64,000 bases of DNA from Trichodelitschia bisporula (lineage: Eukaryota), in the NCBI GenBank assembly GCA_010356995.1, contig ML996703.1, positions 310,001 through 374,000 of the forward strand. Reading direction: 5' to 3'. The notes beneath the pieces were generated by a model. It worked only from the letters and a program-made list of their open reading frames with translations. It was not told the DNA's origin and did no database searches. Below, piece by piece: positions 6,206-49,801 of this stretch. How positions within the stretch are numbered: the first letter of the stretch is position 1; the number at the start of each line of letters is the position of its first letter. The translations under genes were made by a program, and so were the position numbers.

Positions 6206-7347
6206 GTGCAGCCTCGCAAGGCTGTTGCTAGTTATGGTGGATTTTGTGCTGCGCTTGGGCGTTTATGCGGCATCATGGCGCTGGGAGTTGGCTTGCGGGG
6301 GAAGGTGCTTCATGGGCTCGGCGTGGGTGGACTTTTGATCCTAAGTGTTTATATTCAGCATCGTGGGTGGCGATTATCAGGCATCTGGTAACGGATATTA
6401 TATCTAGAAGGTCCACGAACGGCTAGATTTTGAATCTAAAAAGCTTCATAGCTTAAGAGCAAGCGAGATGGTAGCACGTAAGGCGTGGGGAAAGCATGTG
6501 ATGTGCTACCACGATGTATCGTGGACTATTCCGCATTTTGAATAGACGACAAATGGCCCCGTAATCGCAATCGCGTGCTCCAGCTCGTGACCGGATGAGA
6601 GGCCAGTTTGGGAGGGTCAGAGCTCGTGATGCTTGTTCTCAATACTCGAAATGCTCTTAGGAGCCGGGGCTACGCAAAGACTTGACCTTCCAAAACTCGC
6701 AAGGTACAAGGAACCAACTTCGCGGCCAAGCGGAAAATGGCCTTGTGGCCGCGATCACGCAATTGCACTCCCCCGGCTGTGGTTTGGTAGTGTTCCGCAG
6801 ATGGCCGTGGGGAATACGCCATCGGGAAGCCGGTTGGAGCAGAATCTTACTTCTTGTCATTTTTGCCATTTTGCTGAGCTTTGGGTGATGCGCGGCGAAG
6901 CTCGGCGGGCTCTGCCGCCGTCCATGGGACGTTGCGGGTGGCTACTGTGGAAGGCGTGGTTCGCGTATGCGGATATGGTAGTCTACGGAGTTGCTGTCCT
7001 GTACCGGAGGTGGAAAGGTTTAACGGCGGTGGTTGAAGCTTTCTCGAGTAGTACATGTACCGCTGGACAGCCAACCCTCGACGTGAGATCTTTGCCGATT
7101 ACTTTTCTATCGCCGCGTGCCACCCGTCTTGTGTTGCTGATCTCCAAGATCGAAGCTACTGTAAGCACCACCTTATTCGTCCTGTGCCTTGCTTAAGAAT
7201 TCTTCTACTCCCATTCCCCCATCCCATCTACCCGCTTACTCTTTTACTCTCCGTTTCGTCCCCGCCGCTATTCCGCTTATCTCCCGCTCGTGCGCATCCA
7301 CTTCTTCCCCTTCTAGCTTCGAAATTTGCAGCATTGCGGGGCCGGGA

Positions 7348-7357
7348 ATGGCGTCAT
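7348..7357. promoter_or_regulatory. Perfect CYS-3/MetR consensus ATGGCGTCAT about 270 nt upstream of ATP sulfurylase
   Basis: Matches ATGRYRYCAT exactly, in a sulfur-assimilation promoter. Confidence 0.6.
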
Positions 7358-7623
7358 AGCTGCGGGCTCACGGTTACTAGCCACGACGAGAGAAGATCTC
7401 TAGAAGCTAGAGCTAGAAACGCGAGTGGCAATTTGACGAGTCCCCGACGACCGTTGCCCCCCCTCCCCGAAAGTCTTTCAACGCACCACCGGCTGCAAGA
7501 GGTCTTGTTTATAATCCGAGCCGAAGAAAGTCGTCCCGCGTACCTTCTGTCCCCACGCTCCCGTCCCATCCTCATCACCCTTCACCAAAACCCTACACAA
7601 ACTCCACATCCACACTCCTCACA

Positions 7624-9777
<2,154 letters not shown>

Positions 9778-10013
9778 TGGGTAGGGGATGGGGTTGAGGC
9801 GGAGCGTTTAGACGAATGATGGAATGAAGAGCTGAGGCATGTCGGGTTGCTTGTTGCATGCTGTGGAGTTGAATATCTTTGAGGCCGAACGTGGCAGTTG
9901 ATATCAAACGCATTCGAAATCCGCCCAGCACTCTCCAACCAAAGTAACAAGACACCCTTCCTCCGCCTTCGAACCTTCCAGTCGCTAGTCATCGCCCCGA
10001 TCCACAAAAGAAA

Positions 10014-10292
10014 ATAGAGTCTTCTGCTCGCTCAAGCCTCACCGTTCAGAAACCTGTCCACGGAGACAACAAAACAACACCACCTCCTTCACTACAGCGA
10101 AAATATCCAAGGCTTTGTACTGCGTCGTTTGGGAGTACGGGGTCTGGTAGGGAAAACCGCAGCAGATCCCATACTCCCAAGCGGCACTGAGCCTGATATT
10201 ATTGCCGTAGTGAAGGAGGTGGTGTTTGTTGCGTCGTCTCCTATTGGGAGGTCCTGGACATTGATGCGTTGAGCGGACAGAAGAGTTCCTAT
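10014..10292. repeat. Long imperfect inverted repeat / predicted hairpin (arms about 130 nt, loop about 10147-10162)
   Basis: AACACCACCTCCTTCACTAC (10076-10095) is the exact reverse complement of 10207-10226; pairing continues inward and outward with mismatches and bulges. Confidence 0.9.
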
Positions 10293-10852
10293 AATTGAGA
10301 ACTATCGGTGGGGACAAAGTGGACGTGATCTTCCTCTCCTAAACTCTGATGTTGTGTCGAACTCTGCGTCGCTCGCAGACAGTTTGCTGGTAGATAGGGT
10401 CGTGTTGGTGATGTCTATCGAAGCGCGTCCGGATGAGCGCGCCGGTGATCGCTACAAAACATTCGACCTGCCACCGCCACTCAAGAGGGACGACATCGCC
10501 CAGAAGGGACGACGGCACCCTTCCAGAGTACGGCGCCAGATCGAATGTTCCGCAGCCGTCACCGACGCGCCCATCCATTGTCCGCCAACGAAGATGCGCT
10601 GAGTTGATTATTTCGATGGAAGTGTGTTAAGCTGTTGAGCTGTGGCCCATGCACCGCCTTTTCCCCGCCTCGGGCTTGGCACCCTTGCTTGCGCGGCGCC
10701 ACCATCGGCCCGCCAAAAAGTATATATCCGGCGAACGCAACCTCACCTCGCCTCCACGTCGCCTCCCCTCCACCAACCCCCCAACCTACAATCGCTCTCC
10801 CACAACCTCACCACTCACCCACCAAAAACCCACCCTCCTCAAAAACATCACA

Positions 10853-11437
10853 ATGCCTCGCCAATCCCGCGGTCCCTCCCGCCCGGCCGCGCGCCCCGTT
10901 CCTCCCCCCCAGCGCCCCGCCGCACAGCAAACCCGCCCCGCGAGCACGAGCGCCGCACCCCCTGCGACGGCCGCGCCGACGAGCGTTGCGCAGCCGCAGC
11001 AGGCGAGCTCTGGTGGATCGGGGTTGTTTGGGCAGATGGCGAGCACGGCGGCGTAAGTAGCCTCGCGCCTGCAGTGGCGGAAAAACAAACGCGATGAGAA
11101 ATGTATGCTGACGAACGCAGTGGTGTCGCCGTAGGCTCCGCCGTCGGCCACGCAGTCGGCGGCTGGTTCGGTGGCTCCTCCGCGGCGCCGGCGGAGGCGA
11201 GCTCCACTGCGGCCCAGTCGACGGGTGACTCGTACCTGACGCAGAGCCAGTCCGGGCCGAAGGTGTGTGAGGGGGAGATTAGCAAGTTTAAGACGTGTAT
11301 GGATCAGAATGAGGTATGTCGCGTGTTGATATTGGAGGGTGAGGGGTAAAGGCTAATGGGCACAGGGCTCGCTTACGATTTGCGGGTGGTATCTTGATCA
11401 GCTTAAGAGCTGCCAGCAGATGGCGTCGCAGTACTAG
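10853..11437 (+). CDS. MIX17: Mitochondrial CHCH-domain protein (Mix17/CHCHD2 family); 3 exons
   Basis: MPRQSRG N-terminus, GLFGQMASTAAGVAVGSAVGH segment, twin CX9C at the C-terminus; introns 11053-11120 and 11314-11365. Confidence 0.92.
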
Positions 11438-12321
11438 GCGCGCGTGTCTGGTTGGTGGTTGAGGGTTAGGGTAGCGGGCATGGATGGAGTTCGGATGTAC
11501 GATTGTACATAGTCTGATGCTCAGCGCGCGGCTTGGTGGTCTTGTGGCTGCTGGGCTGGGCGTGCGAGCGGATGCAATGGGATCGCCACTTTGCCTATGA
11601 TGCCTATGATATGGGTTGTGTCACGGGTCTGGTCAGGTCCTTCCCAGACTGGGGGAGGAGCTCCTGCCAGACACTGGGGAGGATGGGGACTGAGGTCTTT
11701 TTCCTCTCACCCTCTTCTCCGCTCCCTCGACTTCTCCTCTCCCTCAACTTCTCAATTATAAGCTTCGATCGTCCTCGTCGTTCGGGTTCGTGACATTTTG
11801 GTGCCTGTGGTACGGTTGCTGCTGGCTTTCAGGTACCCAGCCTTCCTCCTGCGTATGGAAGGGCCGATTGTGACAGCAACACTGGAACCGGCGAACTTCA
11901 GCCCATACCGCCACATACGAGCTGGACATATTATCTGTGGAATTGGGTTCGACTGCCCTGGCTGTACTACCACGCCCTACAGATGTACTCGAATAACGAG
12001 CTCCCGCCAAACCCGGTCAAGATCGACAGTACTTCACCTTAAGCCAAGGTTGCGGGCGGTATCGACATCATCTAATCCCTGCTAAGTAGCAGCCTATTTT
12101 CCGACATAAAAGAAGAGTTCCTCTGAGATGGCGGCAACTTCATCCCAACATTGAAAGCAGTTGAGTTTTGCATCGGTCCAGCGCTGCAAGATGGCCACCA
12201 TCACGAACATCAATTCAGTCCCAAACTACAATTACTATCTACAACGCCCTCCACATCACCAAGGTATCACCAAGGTATCAACTTCTCCACCCTTCCACCC
12301 CCAGCTCGAAGACATAACCCC

Positions 12322-14974
12322 CTAATCACAGGCCTTCGGACACGCAATATTCGACCCAAACTTGTCCCCCGACCCACCCGCAATCTGCAAAATCGCATTA
12401 ATAACCCCTCCAATGCCCTCGCCCGCAATCAACCCCGCCGCAACTGCATACCCTAGAATCTCCCACCGGTGCGGATTGCGCTTCGCCCAAACCGTCGCAA
12501 TCGTAGCGCCCATGATCATGGCCGTGCCATCTGAAAAAAACCGTCAGCCTCATCCCTTCTGAAGGAGTCGGGGACAACTTACAGTACGTCTGCGGCAGGA
12601 CAAAAGCCAGCGCAATACACATCATATTGGGATGATACGCGCGGACCCACTCCAGCTTCCCAACCCACATGTAGTGCTTAACCAGCACCATCGCGCTGCC
12701 AAAAATGGAAAATACAATCGAGAATATGCCACTAGACTTCGGAATCGGGAAGCTAGGGTCCGTGACCGCGATAGCGGTTGCGTGCCACGCCGCTGCGCTA
12801 GGGTACGAGAACGCGCACGGCTCGCTCCTGGTGATGATGCATGGGTACGCGGTCATGAAGAGCTGGAACATGAGCGGTGCGATGAAGATGGCGACGAAGG
12901 TGCCGATGCCCTGCGCGATCCATTGCTGCAAAGGCGGCGTGCGCAGCAGGAATCCCGTCCGGAAGTCTTGCGTTAGGTCGGTGGACTGGTTGGCGCCCAT
13001 GTTGGCCAGCGCGCCGCCGAGCAGGTTCAGCTGGCGCGAGTGGTTCAGTTGCCAGTGTTCGCTCCTAGTCGCTCCGCCGAGGATGACTTGCGAGGCCTTG
13101 GAGGCTGCGGTGAGGGGGGTGATGTCTGTCCCGTCAGCCTAATCCAGCAGCCCAGTCGGAGTACCAAACTCACCGGTAACACCCGTGCACTGGATCGCCA
13201 AAAACGAGAAGAAAAACGCCAAAAAGATGGACAGCAGGCTCATGCCGACCGGCATCTGGTACTGGTAATACATGACCAGACAGCCTGCGATAATAACCAT
13301 GATCAGCCCCGGCAGCCACATCCACATCTTGACCAGCTCATGCGGCTCCGCGATATCCTCGATGATATCCTCGTCGTTCTGCCCCGTGCGCTTCCGGAGC
13401 CACTCGTTTTCCTTGCCGGCCCGGCGCTGGAGATCATAGATGCCACGTCCGATGCCACGGCCCAGGGCGCGGCCGGCAAAGAGCAGGATACGCCACTGGA
13501 GCAACAGCTCAGTGAAGGAAATGCACACCATGGCTAGCACACCTGGCCACAACAGCCAAAAGCGCGGGCTCGGGGTATCTTTGCTGCTGAACGGCTTGTC
13601 GAAGGACGCGAAATTCACGAGACCGTTCCATTTCGGATCCTTGGGGTACCTCACCTTGCCGAAGGCCATATTATTGTGCACCAAGGCCGGGCCGATGATT
13701 CCCCTGCAAAGTCAGCTTTGGCGCGGGTAAAGGGTTGGGGTACGAGCCAAGCAATGACGCTGCCGGCGAAAAAGGAGACCGACACGTTCATCCCGACGAG
13801 CATCCCCGAGCCGATGAAGGCCGGCGTAAACTGGACGAACCAGCCCCAGTTCTCTACCGCGAGAGCGGCATCTATCCCAGTTAGCCCGCATCTCGGAATT
13901 CAGAGAGATAACTTACTCTTGAAGTGGCCCCAGATGAAGAACCAGGTAAAGAACTACATTCGTCAGCCTTACCCGCAGCAATGCCGATATTACTCACATG
14001 CCATTCCCACAGAATCCCCACGGCATACTGTGAGACGACGCGTAAAACCAACGCCCCAATAAAGGCTGCCGATAGCGCCTTCATTTTCATCTTGCCGATT
14101 GCCTCGCCCTTCAGCGCATCGTGCATGCTACGGATGGTCATGGCGGTAGCCGAAGCCGACGGGAAGATGAGACGCATCTCGCGAGCGATGTAGAGGATGA
14201 AGAACTTGCGCACTATACGCCGTTAGACTGAACTCTGACATAGGCTTAAGGGCGCACATACGCGGCGTGGCGAAGAAAAACCCAAAGTATCCTCCAACAA
14301 CAGTAATGGATACGATACGCCAAAAATCCTTCTTAGGCGTGTCCATTAACCCCAGCTGGTACAGCGCCGGAAATGCCGATACGAAGACGTTGGACAGCCC
14401 GCCGGATGCCATGGCGGCAGTTTGGACGATGTTGTTCTCCCTCGGCCCGAAGGAGCCGCCCAAAATCGGGACGTTAGCGAAGGTCTTGGAGAAGAACTTG
14501 ATGATTGCGAAGCCAGCGATGGCCTGTTGCTCGATCAGCGTCGGCCATACATTGTTACGCAGCTCAACTTACGCCGAACAAGTTGGCGCCGAACGTCCAT
14601 CCTGACTTCAGGCCCAGGTACAAGTTGGACGCGTTCACGAGCACGCCGCAGATCAAGCCGATGAACACGGCGCGGATGGTCAGGATACGTGGGCGCTCCT
14701 CCGGCAGGTCGTTGAATGGCGTGAAGGGGTCCTTGGCGAAGGCGTCATGATACTCGTCATCAGGGCTACCATGTTCGTCGACAACTGGAATCTTCTCTTC
14801 TCCCGGAGCGTCCGAGTATTCCTTAGGGTTGGACTTCTCCGGAGCGTCTGAGTATTCCTTGGTGTTGTACTCAGACAGCATCGTGCTAGCTCCGTTAGCA
14901 GCTCGTCACAGTCACACTGGATATTGGGCAGCTCACCCATCTTGCGGGTCTACGTCGCGGTGCGCTGTCGCCAT
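12322..14974 (-). CDS. OPT-superfamily oligopeptide transporter (YSL-like clade); multi-exon; start 14974 via intron 14936-14886, or 14881
   Basis: LTIRAVFIG, YLGLKSGW, FGPRENNIVQT, FPSASATA, DLTQDFRTG and AAGLIAGEG motifs across spliced ORFs. Confidence 0.92.
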
Positions 14975-20842: not shown

Positions 20843-22594
20843 CTACTCGTCATCATCCTCCTGGATCGTAGCTAGCTTGCGCTTCTTCGCCTTCGGCGCT
20901 ATGCGCACTTCCTGCAGCAGCTCACGGGGGAGATATTTCTGCGCGAGCGAGAAGGGCGTTGCGCCGGGGGCTAGAAGGCGTTGTCTGCGGCGTGTAAGCA
21001 AAATGTACCCTAGCCTCTCCCAAACCAAAACAGAAAAGCAGAAATCACAAGGACAAGAACAAACAGCCAGCACATACCTCTTCATCAACGTGACCACATC
21101 CGCCTCCTCCACCGTCTTCCGCCCGGCATGATCGGCATAAACAGCCAAATCCTCGGCAATTTGCTCGAAGAACCAGTCCGACGTCTGCGACAACGCGGCC
21201 ACTGTCTCGGCAGTGAGTTTGCCGCTGCCGCCTGCTGAGCGTGCGAATGTTGTCGCTACCTTTTTTATTACGGCAGCAGGCAGGGACGGGAACTCGATGC
21301 CCCACTTTGAGATCTGGAGTTCCTTGCGCTTGCGTTTTGCGTGCTTGAGTTGTGCGGGTTGGGCGCCGCGTTCGGCGGCTGCTTGAGCTTCGACTGGTGG
21401 GGATGAGCCGAGTGGGATAGAGGGGTCGTGGACTTGGATGTCCTCGTCGTCATCGTCGTCGTTGCCTGCGACGTCGTCCAAGTCTGGAATCCCGTAGATC
21501 ACTTCGGCCTCTTCCCGTTCCCCTGCCTCCTCCGCTTCGTCTGCTTCGTCTGCTTCGTCGCCCTCCTCCTCATCAGCATCCGTCTCATCCGCTCCAGTTT
21601 CCACATCCAGAAACTGTCTCGCAGCAGCAGCAGCAAGACTCGACCGTGGCCCCGTAATCCTCCTCTGTTCTGGAATGCGAAAAACAAACGTAGGCTCGCC
21701 ATCCGTCTCCGGCGAATCCCTCAGAGCCAAATCCCCCGTCAAGCCAGACTGTCTCCTCTCCTCCAAAAGCGCCTGCAAATCCCCCGTAAGCTCATTCGCA
21801 ATCAACCGCCCAATATCCTCCGTCAACGCCCCCTGACCCACCCCAAACCCCTCCCCCTCCTCCTCATCCCCACTCCCAACCTCAACCCCCTCAGCATCCC
21901 CCCACCCCAACCCCAAACTCCCCCTCCCCACCGCCCGTCTCCCTTCCTCCACATCTTCCTCCCTCAACCTCGGCCCCTCCCCCTCCTCAAACCAACTCCC
22001 CTCCTCCTCCTCCTCCACCGGCATACTCATCCTCGGCGCCCTCCCCGGCGGACTCGGCACCTCCCCTACATCTAGCCTACTCCTCCTCCGGGCGGATGGG
22101 TTCGCGGGACTCTCCACCCGCGCCGTCCGCCCAGCGAGCACCCGACTCAACGCCCGCAAATCATCGCGCGGCGTCTCGCGGCCCCCGCGCCCGCTCCGCC
22201 GCCGGCCTGGCGTCTGCGCTGCGCGCCGCAGGGCTAGCGCGCGAATTGCGTGTGGAGTTGTGGGCGCGCGGCGGCGTGCGGTGCCCGGTGTGCGGGGTGC
22301 GGTGCCGGGGGTGTCGCGGGGCCGAGGGGTGGGGACGGTGGGCGTGCGGGTGGTGGGTGTGCGTTGCGGGCGGGGTGTTGGGGCGGCGGAGCGTTGCGCT
22401 GCGTCGACGGAGCGTTGGATTAGGCGGCCGAGGGTGTGCAGCTGTGGGAGTTAGACCAGATAGTAGGTTAGGGAAGGGGGACGCACGTTTTCAAAGGCCG
22501 TGGGCGTAGTCGTGCCCGTCGTTTCTGCAGTTGTTCCCGCGGCGGCAGAGACACGCGGCGTCGTGCGTACGCGCTTGGTGGTTGGTTCGGCCAT
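20843..22594 (-). CDS. Inner-kinetochore CENP-T/Cnp20-like protein with C-terminal histone fold
   Basis: TPHAIRAL...RETPRDDLRALSR N-terminal motif, acidic middle, C-terminal FFEQIAEDLAVYADHAGRKTVEEADV..LMKRQR..LPRELL. Confidence 0.85.
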
Positions 22595-30629: not shown

Positions 30630-31119
30630 GGGAGAGGGAGAGGGTCTGATGTATGATTAGGAGGAGGAAATGGATGACGTTTCTTGTCACTGGCGCGATG
30701 TGTGTGAGCTACCGAGTAATAGCCTGAGGTATTATGCACGTAGTTGAGTGGTGAAAGGTACGCCATGGCTCGCACACGGCACCTTTACTACCACCTGCAG
30801 TACTACCCAAACACGCCTCTGGGACCCAGCTCCATACCTCCCCGGATCCTCCGCGCCGGCACACACACCCGGACCTGCATCTGACAACGGCCCGTACATA
30901 CCAGAATGCCAACCCGCGACCGGACGGACGACTTGTTGAGCAACCCGGCCCGATAATCGCAACCTAGTCCCAGGCGAGCGGTGCCGGCGCGGTTGCCGCT
31001 TCGTGGGAGGCAGTGAAACCTTCAGCCTTGCTCCTGACGTGTACCTTTTGTTCTTTGTCTTTGACGCCGAGACCATTCACTAGTGCCAGGCACGGGTTGC
31101 GTTTGTAGCTTTCTACGCT

Positions 31120-31509
31120 GCAACTCCGACATGAAAGCGAAGAAATCGGAGTCGCTACAAAGAGCTCGAGGTCTTGATTCGAACCGTGCCGTCTTTTTTG
31201 AAGTATTCCGTGATCTGCAGAGCAGCTAATGCGCGACAGCGCACGCACCTGAAGAGCATCGCGAAGATGGTCGAGCATAGACGCTATGCAAAGACTCGAG
31301 CGAAGTCCCTAGAATCCTCCATCTGCTCGGGTTTCTTACATAGGTTAGCGTCTATGCTTGTCCATGTTCGCAATGTTTTTCATGTGGCTGCGCTGTCGCG
31401 AATCAGGTGCTCGGCAGATCAAGGACCGGTTCAAGAGCGGTATGGTTCAAACTGTACGTTCGAGCTCTTTTCAATGGTTCCAACTTCGTTGTTTTGATGT
31501 CGGGGTTGC
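31120..31509. repeat. Long imperfect inverted repeat / predicted hairpin (arms about 180 nt, loop about 31302-31324)
   Basis: AGCATAGACGCTA (31274-31286) is complementary to 31346-31358 and pairing runs along both arms; opposite-strand ORFs give near-identical peptides (ALSRISCSADHG vs ALSRIRCSADQG). Confidence 0.92.
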
Positions 31510-31830
31510 CGCACAGGTGATGCCATACAAGATTCCCTTAGCGAACCTATCCAGACTATGATCAGTTCTGAAACGCTGGAAAAGATATAGCACTGAACCT
31601 CGGAGGGAGTGATCCTAGATGAAGTTAATGAGATAGTGGTGAAGAATCTGTTTGGTGACACAGCCGAGACGTCATCGCCGAGACATGCCAGATCTCGCAA
31701 GCAACGGTACCCGCCGCGCCAAGCAACTAAACGCCGAGTCGCCGTGAACGCCATCTCCAGCTCGACATTGAACACCGCAACAGTTCCCGCTAATCCCAGC
31801 ATCAGCGACTTCAAAGCGGCAGGCGCTTCA

Positions 31831-48536: not shown

Positions 48537-48887
48537 TCACTCCCCGCCTGTCCCCGTAACCCACGCCGGCCTCACCTCCACCCCATCCTCCCCCATAACC
48601 TTCCCACGATCCCACTCCCTCCCCTCCCCCTCCCGCACCCACCTCACATCCTCTTCCCCCCTCTCCCCGCCCCTCTCCGACCGCCTCACTTCCTCCTCCG
48701 TGAACCCCGCCTCCCTTAACCGTCGCGCCCGCAACTGCCGCCACTTCATCCGGTCACGCATCGCCTCCACCACTGCCTCACAGTCATCCGTGGCATCCGG
48801 CTCCACGTCTAGGCCTGGGTCGTAATCGGCGCCGAAGCGTGCGTCCATGGCGGAGGGGCCGTGGGTGCCGCGGCCGCGAGGTTTAGG

Positions 48888-48935
<48 letters not shown>

Positions 48936-49801
48936 GCGGGAGCGGCGTTTTGTTCTGCTGGATTTGGATGGGGAGTGAGAGTCGTGCTTGCTCCGCCGGT
49001 CTGTGTCCTTGTCCTTGTGCCTGCGTCGATCTTTTTCCTTGTACTTGTGCCGCTCCCCACGCTCGCGGCCCCGGCTGCGGCTGCGGCTGCGGCTGCGGCT
49101 GCGGCTGCGTGACGAGTGGCGGTGCCGACGTTTCCGGGAGCTGCGCTCATGGCTGCGGGGGCGGGATCTAGACCGCGACGTCGACCGGTGGTGGGGGCGG
49201 TGCCTATGCGAGCGGTGATGCCGATGGCGCTCGTCCCTGTCGCGACAGTCCTTGTCCCGCGCCAGACCAGACTCCCGGTCTTTGTCCCGCGTTCGATCCG
49301 ACCCCGCGTCCTTGTCTCGCGTCCGAGTCGACTCCCGGTCCGTATCCGGCGTCCGACCCAAGGCCCGGTCGCTCTCCCTCCGAGCCGACTCGCGGTGTTT
49401 ATTTCGCGACCGACCCGTGTCGCGCTGATTCCCCATCTCGCGCTCTAGACGGCCAGCCCACCCCGCATTCCGGTCGCCGTCCGTTCTCCGTCTCTTCGCC
49501 GGGCGGCCGTCATCGGCCTCTGCTTCCCTTCCACCCAGCCCCCTCAACCTAGCCCTAGCCTCCTCCTCCCTCTCCAGCAACGCCTTATTATGCCCCGTCG
49601 TCTCCCTCAAAATATTCCTCAGAAAACGTGTATTCGGCTTTGGGGCAAGTGGGTTCGGCCTGCATCATCCATCAGCACTGTCCATCCAAACAAGAAAAGT
49701 ACAAACCTGCTCGCAACGAGCCCATCGCTGCGTCCAGCTATGGCCTTTGCGTCGGAAGCAAGGAGCTGCGCGACGTAGCTGTCGTTTAGGTCGTCGTCCA
49801 T
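48537..49801 (-). CDS. Conserved fungal RS/RD-rich protein (possible splicing-associated); 2 exons
   Basis: MDDDLNDSYVAQLL start, PKPNTRFLRNILRETTGHN, RS repeats, MDARF..YDP and REWDRGK tail. Confidence 0.75.
48889..48934. repeat. G46 homopolymer (poly-Pro on the coding strand)
   Basis: 46 consecutive G counted in the sequence. Confidence 0.95.
49072..49108. repeat. (CGGCTG)6 microsatellite encoding RS dipeptides on the minus strand
   Basis: Read directly. Confidence 0.9.

What the first reader, a model, noticed from the sequence alone, without database searches (positions are those of the whole stretch)
10014..10292. Long intergenic hairpin 1: candidate milRNA/hairpin-RNA precursor downstream of ATP sulfurylase
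Seen: about 130-nt arms pairing around a loop of about 16 nt, with a perfect 20-bp core (10076-10095 with 10207-10226), a second near-perfect 23-bp stem (GTCGTTTGGGAGTACGGGGTCTG with CAGATCCCATACTCCCAAGCGGC), and scattered wobbles, mismatches and bulges. No terminal repeat/target duplication structure or transposase is visible. G-U and A-C differences are both present, so the transcribed strand is unresolved. Established: fungal microRNA-like RNAs come from such imperfect fold-backs via Dicer and usually start with U. Inference: an unannotated small-RNA gene; a possible mature species starts at 10208 (UAGUGAAGGAGGUGGUGUUUG).
Basis: partly seen in the sequence, partly recalled or inferred. Interest (0 to 1): 0.75.

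Follow-up and report, generated by a model that had tools for sequence, protein, structure and literature searches.

The report
Transcribed long hairpin behind ATP sulfurylase
A real 279-base fold-back sequence sits just behind a fungal sulfur-assimilation gene and is transcribed along with it, but it looks more like a slowly decaying DNA palindrome carried in the message's tail than a dedicated small-RNA gene.

Summary
The hairpin is real. Window 10014-10292 folds at -158.4 (+) and -155.8 (-) kcal/mol, z about -14, 0 of 200 shuffles as good. It lies 237 nt behind the stop codon of an ATP sulfurylase/APS-kinase gene.

It is not silent intergenic DNA. Spliced RNA contigs of two runs run from the ATP sulfurylase exons straight through it, to 10445 and 10503.

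It shows no second copy: none in the 64-kb window, in the DNA-run contigs at 90% likeness or in the metagenome contigs.

None of 57-58 relatives' ATP sulfurylase loci has a comparable structure downstream. These relatives are distant.

Its arms are 81% alike. Transitions split 7 G·U to 8 A·C, and both this symmetry and the 20-bp perfect core fit simulated neutral decay.

No small-RNA data exist, so milRNA status is untested.

Best reading: a lineage-specific decayed inverted duplication riding in the 3' tail of the mRNA, at most an incidental Dicer substrate.

The neighbouring hairpin at 10428-10579 does carry a strong minus-strand G·U signature and is the better RNA-gene candidate.

The parts
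10014..10146 (.). Left arm of hairpin H1
   Evidence: Pairs with 10163-10292. Contains the perfect core 10076-10095.
10147..10162 (.). Terminal loop/spacer of H1 (16 nt)
   Evidence: I3: 16 nt between the arms. It is partly paired in the MFE folds.
10163..10292 (.). Right arm of H1
Evidence: The reverse complement aligns to the left arm with 104 matches, 24 substitutions and 15 gap columns.
9134..9777 (+). Last coding exon of the ATP sulfurylase/APS-kinase-like gene, with the stop codon at 9775-9777
   Evidence: Pfam PF01747 and PF01583. Residues from 9136-9774 are 213 of 213 identical to KAF2397434.1 of Trichodelitschia bisporula. The splice joint 9088/9134 is in an RNA contig.
9778..10503 (+). 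Transcribed tail behind the stop codon (3' UTR or read-through) that contains all of H1
   Evidence: X4 record 20, one spliced contig, covers 7131-10445. X3 record 17 covers 9153-10503. Word depths are 65.7 and 133, against 0-4.4 in the silent stretch 11824-12225. The + strand is inferred from GT..AG joints in the same contig; the contigs themselves are unstranded.
10428..10579 (-). Neighbouring, unrelated hairpin H2, which folds much better as a minus-strand RNA
   Evidence: MFE -112.0 (-, z -12.3) against -74.4 (+, z -8.6). It has 11 G·U pairs on - and 2 on +. 13 of 15 arm transitions are G·U on -. 0 of 600 neutral-decay simulations reach the 37.6 kcal/mol asymmetry.

Best explanation
H1 is a lineage-specific, single-locus, old inverted duplication: a DNA palindrome whose arms have drifted to about 81% identity. 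It sits in the transcribed tail of the ATP sulfurylase gene of a Trichodelitschia bisporula-like Dothideomycete.

It most likely arose at the DNA level. The two candidate routes are a fold-back or template-switch inverted duplication of local sequence, or, less likely, an old fold-back-type element. It has since decayed without selection on either RNA strand.

Because the ATP sulfurylase transcript runs through it, the mRNA tail should carry an imperfect duplex of roughly 110 bp. In an RNAi-competent fungus such a duplex could be diced into heterogeneous siRNAs that match the mRNA's own other arm. That would make it a long-hairpin-RNA-type by-product rather than a precise milRNA.

Shown: the structure, its transcription, its continuity with the upstream mRNA, the absence of close copies, and the absence of a strand signature.

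Inferred: its DNA-level origin, its neutrality, and any dicing.
For: - Structure: z -14 on both strands.
- Transcription: a spliced RNA contig covers 7131-10445 (X4) and another covers 9153-10503 (X3), both with 0 differences. Depths are 65.7 and 133, against 0-4.4 in a silent stretch. No joint removes the hairpin.
- No strand signal: MFE -158.4 against -155.8; 9 against 10 G·U pairs. Transitions split 7 wobble to 8 A·C on +. 86% of 200 neutral-decay simulations give a larger strand asymmetry, and 39% give a perfect run of 20 or more. Transitions to transversions are 15:9, with 15 gap columns, as in unconstrained decay.
- Copy number: no other copy in the window by blastn with word size 7. In DNA run X2 all 7 laid records are listed, and only one, a 3,286-nt unitig at the flanks' depth, covers the hairpin. 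There are 0 metagenome matches to the 23-nt core.
- Not a conserved feature of the gene: no UTR similarity in 80 loci. 0 of 58 loci have an inverted repeat of 60 bits or more within 1 kb downstream. 0 of 57 have a 160-nt window at z -2.9 or below.
- Genome habit: the window holds 3 unrelated strong hairpins in 64 kb, against 0 strong in 419,534 nt of other fungi.
- No coding signal: the 92-aa minus-strand ORF across it has 0 relatives among 1.84 billion representatives and no Pfam family.
Against: - Neutrality is argued from one sequence, with only 15 transitions. A weak constraint, or use of both strands, would look the same.
- The relatives examined are distant: 88% amino-acid identity or less and 81% or less in the blastn-aligned parts of the CDS. 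Absence there says nothing about conservation within Phaeotrichales.
- An old palindrome (Jukes-Cantor distance 0.22 between arms) that still pairs over about 110 bp might be kept for a reason.
- The adjacent H2 does show an RNA-strand signature, so hairpin RNAs may matter at this locus.
- The RNA contigs are unstranded, and a contig across a region does not prove a single transcript. H1 could therefore belong to a separate or antisense RNA.
- Copies diverged by more than about 10% would have escaped the DNA-run check, so an old dispersed family is not excluded.
Confidence: 0.55

Rival explanations
1. H1 is a selected small-RNA precursor, either a milRNA or a long hairpin RNA. It would be co-transcribed with ATP sulfurylase, or transcribed on its own, and diced into functional 20-24-nt RNAs.
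For: It is a highly stable fold-back and it is transcribed. The candidate at 10208 begins with U.
Against: The arms are about 130 nt, whereas well-supported fungal loci have short hairpins. There is no strand-biased G·U pattern, and the perfect core is expected by chance. There is no Rfam family at gathering score; the only overlaps are a 16-bit mir-4891 hit at E 4.3 and a ctRNA_p42d hit (10004-10025) at E 6.3. No comparable hairpin lies behind the gene in 57-58 relatives. The hairpin-bearing RNA assembles in one unitig with the last coding exon (X3 record 17, depth 133, against 210 for the upstream exons), so it is not visibly depleted. That last point is weak, because contig depth is only a mean.
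Confidence: 0.2
2. H1 is a decayed copy of a fold-back or MITE-type transposon family that landed in the 3' region of the gene.
For: The whole element is an inverted repeat with a short spacer. Three unrelated elements of this kind lie in gene-flanking DNA within 64 kb, while other fungi show none.
Against: No target-site duplication is visible: the 8-nt flanks match at 3 of 8 positions, and a TA reading is possible but trivial (read). No transposase is nearby. There is no second copy in the window. No other contig at 90% likeness or more, and no unitig branch, appears in the DNA runs. The core has 0 metagenome hits. H1, H2 and H3 share no termini or sequence.
Confidence: 0.15
3. H1 and H2 belong to one minus-strand non-coding transcript, a two-hairpin cluster. 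It would start near the strong promoter of the downstream gene and run antisense into the ATP sulfurylase tail.
For: H2 is strongly biased towards minus-strand folding. H1 folds equally well on the minus strand. H2 lies roughly 200 nt upstream of the estimated start of a very highly expressed + gene (depth 3777 and 1247). The RNA contigs are unstranded.
Against: There is no direct evidence of minus-strand RNA. The contig over H1 is continuous with + strand spliced exons. The listed X3 and X4 records stop at 10503 and 10445, inside H2, and do not cover all of it. H1 has no minus-strand signature.
Confidence: 0.1
4. H1 is a cis-acting 3' UTR structure that tunes ATP sulfurylase mRNA stability, localisation or translation, for example as an RNase III target or a binding site for a double-stranded-RNA-binding protein.
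For: It lies inside the transcribed tail of the gene, which is a regulated sulfur-assimilation gene (established knowledge).
Against: No equivalent is found in 57-58 other fungi. The plus strand, which would be the functional one, shows no G·U bias. The many bulges and indels fit drift.
Confidence: 0.08

Closest known systems
Fungal microRNA-like RNA (milRNA) precursors, as re-analysed in PMC9757828
   Same: An imperfect fold-back in a transcribed, gene-associated, non-coding region. UTR origin is an accepted context.
   Different: Well-supported fungal loci have short, animal-like hairpins, whereas H1 has arms of about 130 nt. There is no small-RNA evidence, no conservation and no strand signature here.
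Long hairpin RNA (hpRNA) / endogenous inverted-repeat siRNA loci of plants and flies (recalled; natural occurrence called an open question in PMC9757828, passage read)
   Same: A long transcribed inverted repeat with mismatches and a short loop. It would yield heterogeneous siRNAs if diced.
   Different: Known hpRNA arms derive from, and target, another gene. No source or target was found in the window, and the rest of the genome could not be searched. Here the only certain complement is the same mRNA's other arm.
Fold-back / MITE transposons and MITE-derived hairpin RNAs (PMC3086885, search listing only)
   Same: An inverted-repeat body of a few hundred bases in gene-flanking DNA, transcribed by read-through.
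   Different: No target-site duplication, no dispersed copies detected, and no family relation among the three hairpins of the window.
Introner-like elements of Dothideomycetes (PMC3879977, passage read; the primary paper, van der Burgt 2012, was not seen)
   Same: The same fungal class. These are short non-coding insertions in transcribed DNA. That they have unusually stable predicted folds is recalled, not read.
   Different: Introner-like elements are multi-copy, near-identical and efficiently spliced. H1 is single-copy at the level tested, and no RNA contig splices it out (table 5).
Inverted repeats in animal 3' UTRs, such as inverted Alu pairs (recalled)
   Same: A long imperfect intramolecular duplex carried in the 3' UTR of an ordinary mRNA as a by-product of DNA-level events.
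   Different: Those are pairs of dispersed repeats and are marked by A-to-I editing. Here the arms are a local unique duplication, and the RNA contigs show no letter differences from the DNA (table 3). Contigs would hide rare variants.

Membership tests
milRNA / miRNA-like precursor | Hairpin fold clearly more stable than shuffled controls | tested here: met
   z -14.05 (+) and -14.46 (-); 0 of 200 shuffles fold as well
milRNA / miRNA-like precursor | Precursor is transcribed | tested here: met
   RNA contigs of runs X3 and X4 (one study) cover all of H1 at depth 133 and 65.7, against 0-4.4 in a silent stretch. The strand is not resolved directly.
milRNA / miRNA-like precursor | Discrete, dominant 19-25-nt species with a star strand, dependent on Dicer | not testable with these tools
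   No small-RNA run was listed for this DNA, and the contigs cannot show small RNAs
milRNA / miRNA-like precursor | Short hairpin of animal-like size | tested here: not met
milRNA / miRNA-like precursor | Hairpin retained in related genomes | tested here: inconclusive
   No similarity or comparable structure in 57-58 relatives' loci. All of them are 88% amino-acid identity or less. No close relative was available.
Fold-back / MITE transposon | Terminal inverted repeats | tested here: met
   The whole element is an inverted repeat, so this feature does not discriminate
Fold-back / MITE transposon | Target-site duplication at the ends | tested here: not met
   The flanks at 10007-10014 and 10292-10299 agree at 3 of 8 positions. 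Only a trivial TA reading is possible (read). Decay could have erased a duplication.
Fold-back / MITE transposon | Multiple dispersed copies in the genome | tested here: inconclusive
   There is none in the 64-kb window. No second record at 90% or more, and an unbranched unitig at single-copy depth, in the DNA runs. The core has 0 metagenome hits. Copies below 90% identity elsewhere in the genome could not be looked for, because no genome is held.
Long hairpin RNA (hpRNA) locus | Long transcribed inverted repeat | tested here: met
Long hairpin RNA (hpRNA) locus | Arms homologous to a target gene elsewhere | not testable with these tools
   No match in the window. The ORF across the arms has 0 protein relatives. 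The rest of the genome is not held.
Any Rfam family | Score at or above the family's gathering threshold | tested here: not met
   0 matches in the whole window at gathering score. The only overlaps of H1 are mir-4891 at 16 bits against a threshold of 100 and ctRNA_p42d (10004-10025) at 14.9 bits against 50.
RIP-mutated duplication | Arm differences almost all C-to-T/G-to-A transitions in a CpA (TpA product) context | tested here: not met
   15 transitions against 9 transversions, plus indels. About 2 of 15 transitions lie in a TpA context (read).
Introner-like element | Spliced out of the transcript; near-identical copies | tested here: not met
   No joint spans H1 in either RNA run (table 5). 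No close copy was found.

The most novel reading that the evidence does not exclude
This fungus may carry a genome-wide set of unique long hairpin-RNA genes placed behind or between genes, at about one per 20 kb in this window. In that case H1 and H2 would form a two-hairpin locus at the ATP sulfurylase 3' end whose dicing couples small-RNA production to, or feeds back on, sulfur-assimilation mRNA. It would be a natural long-hpRNA system in a filamentous ascomycete. H2's minus-strand G·U signature would be the first trace of selection on it.
Probability: 0.12. Interest if true: 0.65.

Novelty: new member of a known kind. Interest (0 to 1): 0.3.

Why it matters
Whether fungi naturally use long hairpin RNAs is still described as unexplored (PMC9757828, passage read). 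A long duplex inside the mRNA of a core sulfur-assimilation gene would be a clean test case for self-directed RNAi.

As it stands, the evidence points to an ordinary outcome: an old local palindrome carried passively in a long 3' tail.

Two side results are more useful than the hairpin itself. This genome seems unusually rich in unrelated long hairpins (3 in 64 kb against none in 420 kb of other fungi). One of them, H2, bears a strand-specific pairing signature that neutral decay does not produce.

Tried and rejected
- Whole-genome search for copies: no genome is held for this window.
- Earlier findings of the scan, searched by place, by sequence and by words: nothing.
- Rfam: nothing at gathering score in the window. 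Around the hairpins there are only sub-threshold hits. The best is MIR8565 on H2 at 44 bits against a gathering score of 136, which I take as generic hairpin likeness.
- Sequencing runs: no RNA holder is on record as RNA and no small-RNA run was listed. X3 and X4 proved to be RNA by their spliced contigs. The parts without RNA cover, 11824-12225, were used only as a background control.
- RIP as the source of arm differences: rejected for H1 and H2 on context and transversion counts.
- Regional mutation bias as the cause of H2's asymmetry: rejected, because the flanks are skewed the opposite way.
- Synteny-based empty-site comparison: not possible. The downstream gene is next to ATP sulfurylase in only 2 of 80 loci (L077 and L078), and there it lies upstream on the other strand.
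- Coding reading of the 92-aa minus-strand ORF: no Pfam family and 0 relatives.
- Identity of the highly expressed downstream gene: no Pfam family. Romo1 scores 17.3 bits, below its 27.6 cut-off. Its N-terminus reminds me of Mix17/CHCHD2-type proteins, from recall only.
- Literature: 21 papers mention the genus, and none of the 15 listed is about small RNAs or repeats. The 101-genomes paper has no passage on its repeats. The searches on fold-back duplications and on introner-like elements added only background.

Full report
**What is there.** Window 10014-10292 is a genuine long imperfect inverted repeat.
- The repeat finder reports the two best-paired blocks: 10076-10107 with 10195-10226 (32 nt, 91%) and 10126-10146 with 10163-10183 (21 nt, 86%, 16 nt apart).
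- The 279 nt fold at -158.4 kcal/mol as + strand RNA and -155.8 as - strand RNA. Shuffles give about -83 +/- 5 (z -14.05 and -14.46), and 0 of 200 shuffles fold as well.
- The + fold has 110 pairs: 54 GC, 47 AU, 9 GU.
- A global alignment of the left arm with the reverse complement of the right arm gives 104 matches, 15 transitions, 9 transversions and 15 gap columns.
- In a scan of 160-nt windows over the whole 64 kb on both strands (3,200 folds, corrected for G+C), H1 and its neighbour H2 are the strongest outliers. H1 reaches z -4.0 and -3.5, and H2 reaches -4.2.

**Context and organism.** The ORF 8614-9777 (+) matches Pfam ATP-sulfurylase (6.7e-67) and APS_kinase (1e-55). Its last exon is 213 of 213 residues identical to KAF2397434.1 of Trichodelitschia bisporula. 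This is a dung-inhabiting Dothideomycete of the order Phaeotrichales (PMC7082219, passage read). No whole genome is held for the window. An OPT transporter lies further downstream on the minus strand, at 12398-13684.

**Transcription.** Four public runs hold the stretch. I laid them on 7000-13000.
- X1 and X2 are DNA and may be the source of the assembly.
- X3 and X4 come from another sample and study. They are RNA, because their contigs skip GT..AG introns.
- In X4 one 2,883-nt contig covers 7131-10445. It carries the ATP sulfurylase splice joints (7641/7690, 7839/8032, 8059/8107, 8290/8338, 8483/8537, 9088/9134) and then runs unbroken through the stop codon (9777) and all of H1.
- In X3 a 1,351-nt contig covers 9153-10503.
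- Both match the window with 0 other letters and 0 gaps.
- Their word depths are 65.7 and 133. The stretch 11824-12225 has 0-4.4, so DNA carry-over does not explain the cover.
- No joint removes the hairpin, and no letter differences were reported.

H1 is therefore transcribed and continuous with the ATP sulfurylase mRNA. That implies a tail of roughly 670-730 nt behind the stop codon. There are three limits. The contigs are unstranded. A contig does not prove one molecule. Contig depth is a mean, so neither alternative upstream poly(A) sites nor an overlapping antisense RNA can be excluded.

**Copy number and relatives.**
- blastn with word size 7 finds H1 only at its own place and as its own inverted match.
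- In DNA run X2 all 7 laid records are listed. The only one over H1 is a 3,286-nt unitig (8042-11327) at depth 196.8, like its neighbours at 199.8 and 214.1. X1 gives the same picture, although 2 of its 10 laid records are not shown.
- An unbranched unitig means that no other locus shares a 31-mer with H1. The laying threshold was 90%, so older, more diverged copies would be missed.
- The 23-nt core pattern has 0 matches in the metagenome contigs.
- A scan with the ATP sulfurylase ORF returned 80 fungal loci, at 88% amino-acid identity or less and 81% or less in the blastn-aligned parts of the CDS.
- The 863 nt behind the window's stop codon find nothing in them except one 25-nt match at E 0.39.
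- 0 of 58 loci with at least 700 nt downstream hold an inverted repeat of 60 bits or more in the first kilobase. The best is 51 bits, in L003.
- 0 of 57 have a 160-nt window at z -2.9 or below, and the best is -2.4.

A long hairpin is thus not a general attribute of this gene. Because the relatives are distant, conservation within the order remains untested.

**Is there a sign of selection on the RNA?** In a hairpin kept for one RNA strand, arm differences should favour G·U on that strand.
- In H1 the 15 transitions split 7 G·U to 8 A·C on the + strand.
- The two strands fold within 2.6 kcal/mol of each other.
- In simulations that decay a perfect palindrome with the same numbers of substitutions, 86% of 200 runs show a larger strand difference (sd 13.3). 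39% keep a perfect run of 20 or more.
- Together with 9 transversions and 15 gap columns, this is what unconstrained decay of a DNA palindrome looks like.
- The Jukes-Cantor distance between the arms is 0.22, so the duplication is old.
- RIP does not explain the differences: transitions to transversions are 15:9, and about 2 of 15 transitions lie in a TpA context.
- No target-site duplication is visible (3 of 8 flank positions agree). No transposase domain is nearby.
- The 92-aa minus-strand ORF across H1 has no Pfam family and 0 relatives among 1.84 billion representatives.

**Best reading.** H1 is a lineage-specific, old inverted duplication that rides in the transcribed tail of the ATP sulfurylase gene. 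I rate this passenger reading at 0.55.
- For its origin I favour a local fold-back or template-switch duplication over an old fold-back element. It is unique, has a short spacer and has no target-site duplication.
- In the RNA it must form a long imperfect duplex. If the fungus has working RNAi (not tested), some dicing into heterogeneous siRNAs is plausible, and their only certain target is the same mRNA's other arm.
- That would make it work like a long hairpin-RNA locus, not like a milRNA gene. Well-supported fungal milRNA hairpins are short (PMC9757828, passages read).

The rivals are a selected small-RNA precursor (0.2), an old MITE-type copy (0.15), part of a minus-strand hairpin transcript together with H2 (0.1), and a cis-acting UTR structure (0.08).

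**The surroundings are more unusual than H1.** The same inverted-repeat scan finds three strong hairpins in the 64-kb window:
- H1, at 139 bits.
- H2 at 10428-10579, at 78 bits.
- H3 at 31117-31512, at 191 bits. H3 lies between a UBX-domain gene and a GPI2 gene.

It finds none that strong in 419,534 nt of the 80 other fungal loci, which give only two weak hits at 58 and 48 bits. The three share no sequence.

H2, only 136 nt from H1, differs from it in kind.
- It folds at -112.0 kcal/mol as minus-strand RNA and -74.4 as plus-strand RNA.
- It has 11 G·U pairs on the minus strand and 2 on the plus strand.
- 13 of its 15 arm transitions are G·U on the minus strand.
- 0 of 600 neutral-decay simulations reach its 37.6 kcal/mol asymmetry (sd about 11.5).
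- Its flanks are skewed the opposite way, so a regional mutation bias is not the cause.

H2 sits where the ATP sulfurylase RNA contigs end. By my estimate from bin depths, it lies about 200 nt upstream of the start of a very highly expressed + gene, with depth 3777 and 1247. It is the better candidate for a selected hairpin RNA, and it keeps open the reading that H1 and H2 belong to one antisense transcript.

**Verdict.** The interpretation as a small-RNA gene is neither shown nor excluded, and the indirect evidence leans towards a passive palindrome in a long 3' tail. Small-RNA and stranded RNA sequencing of this fungus, and a relaxed search of its full assembly, would settle the matter.

Noticed in passing
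window 10428-10579 (H2): A 152-nt hairpin, unrelated to H1, that folds at -112.0 kcal/mol as minus-strand RNA and -74.4 as plus-strand RNA. 13 of its 15 arm transitions are G·U on the minus strand. 0 of 600 neutral-decay simulations reach this asymmetry, and the flanks are skewed the other way. It lies at the end of the ATP sulfurylase RNA contigs and upstream of a highly expressed gene. Its best Rfam hit, MIR8565, scores 44 bits against a threshold of 136.
   Followed up: partly
window 31117-31512 (H3): A hairpin of about 400 nt (191 bits in the self-inverted blast) that folds at -212.7 (+) and -191.2 (-) kcal/mol. Its arms are about 74% alike. It lies between a UBX-domain gene (ORF end 30629) and a GPI2 gene (from 31597), both on +. 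Its transcription was not examined.
   Followed up: partly
whole window against loci L001-L080: There are three strong, mutually unrelated long hairpins in 64 kb here, against none as strong in 419,534 nt of other fungi's ATP sulfurylase loci. This genome may be unusually rich in such structures.
   Followed up: partly
window 9089-9133: An in-frame 45-nt intron inside the ATP sulfurylase domain. It is spliced in the X4 contig. In X3 the contigs break there with loose ends at 9091 and 9134, which suggests that both spliced and retained forms exist. Retention would add 15 residues without breaking the frame.
   Followed up: no
window about 10770-11690 (+): A small gene with two introns (11053-11120 and about 11312-11365), a likely start codon at 10853, and an Ala/Ser/Pro-rich product. 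Its RNA contig depth is 3777 and 1247, against 133 and 66 for ATP sulfurylase. It has no Pfam family; Romo1 scores 17.3 bits, below its cut-off. It resembles Mix17/CHCHD2-type proteins, from recall only.
   Followed up: partly
window 22081-22360: A stretch of 78-81% G+C that is among the strongest-folding windows, at z -3.3 on +. It was not examined further.
   Followed up: no
window 48615-48979: A weak, long inverted repeat: 380-nt alignment, 59% identity, 54 bits.
   Followed up: no
window 11298 and 11972 (DNA run X2): The loose ends flanking a 675-nt unitig look like halves of a Cre-lox mate-pair linker (recalled). This is most likely a library artefact, not biology (table 7).
   Followed up: no
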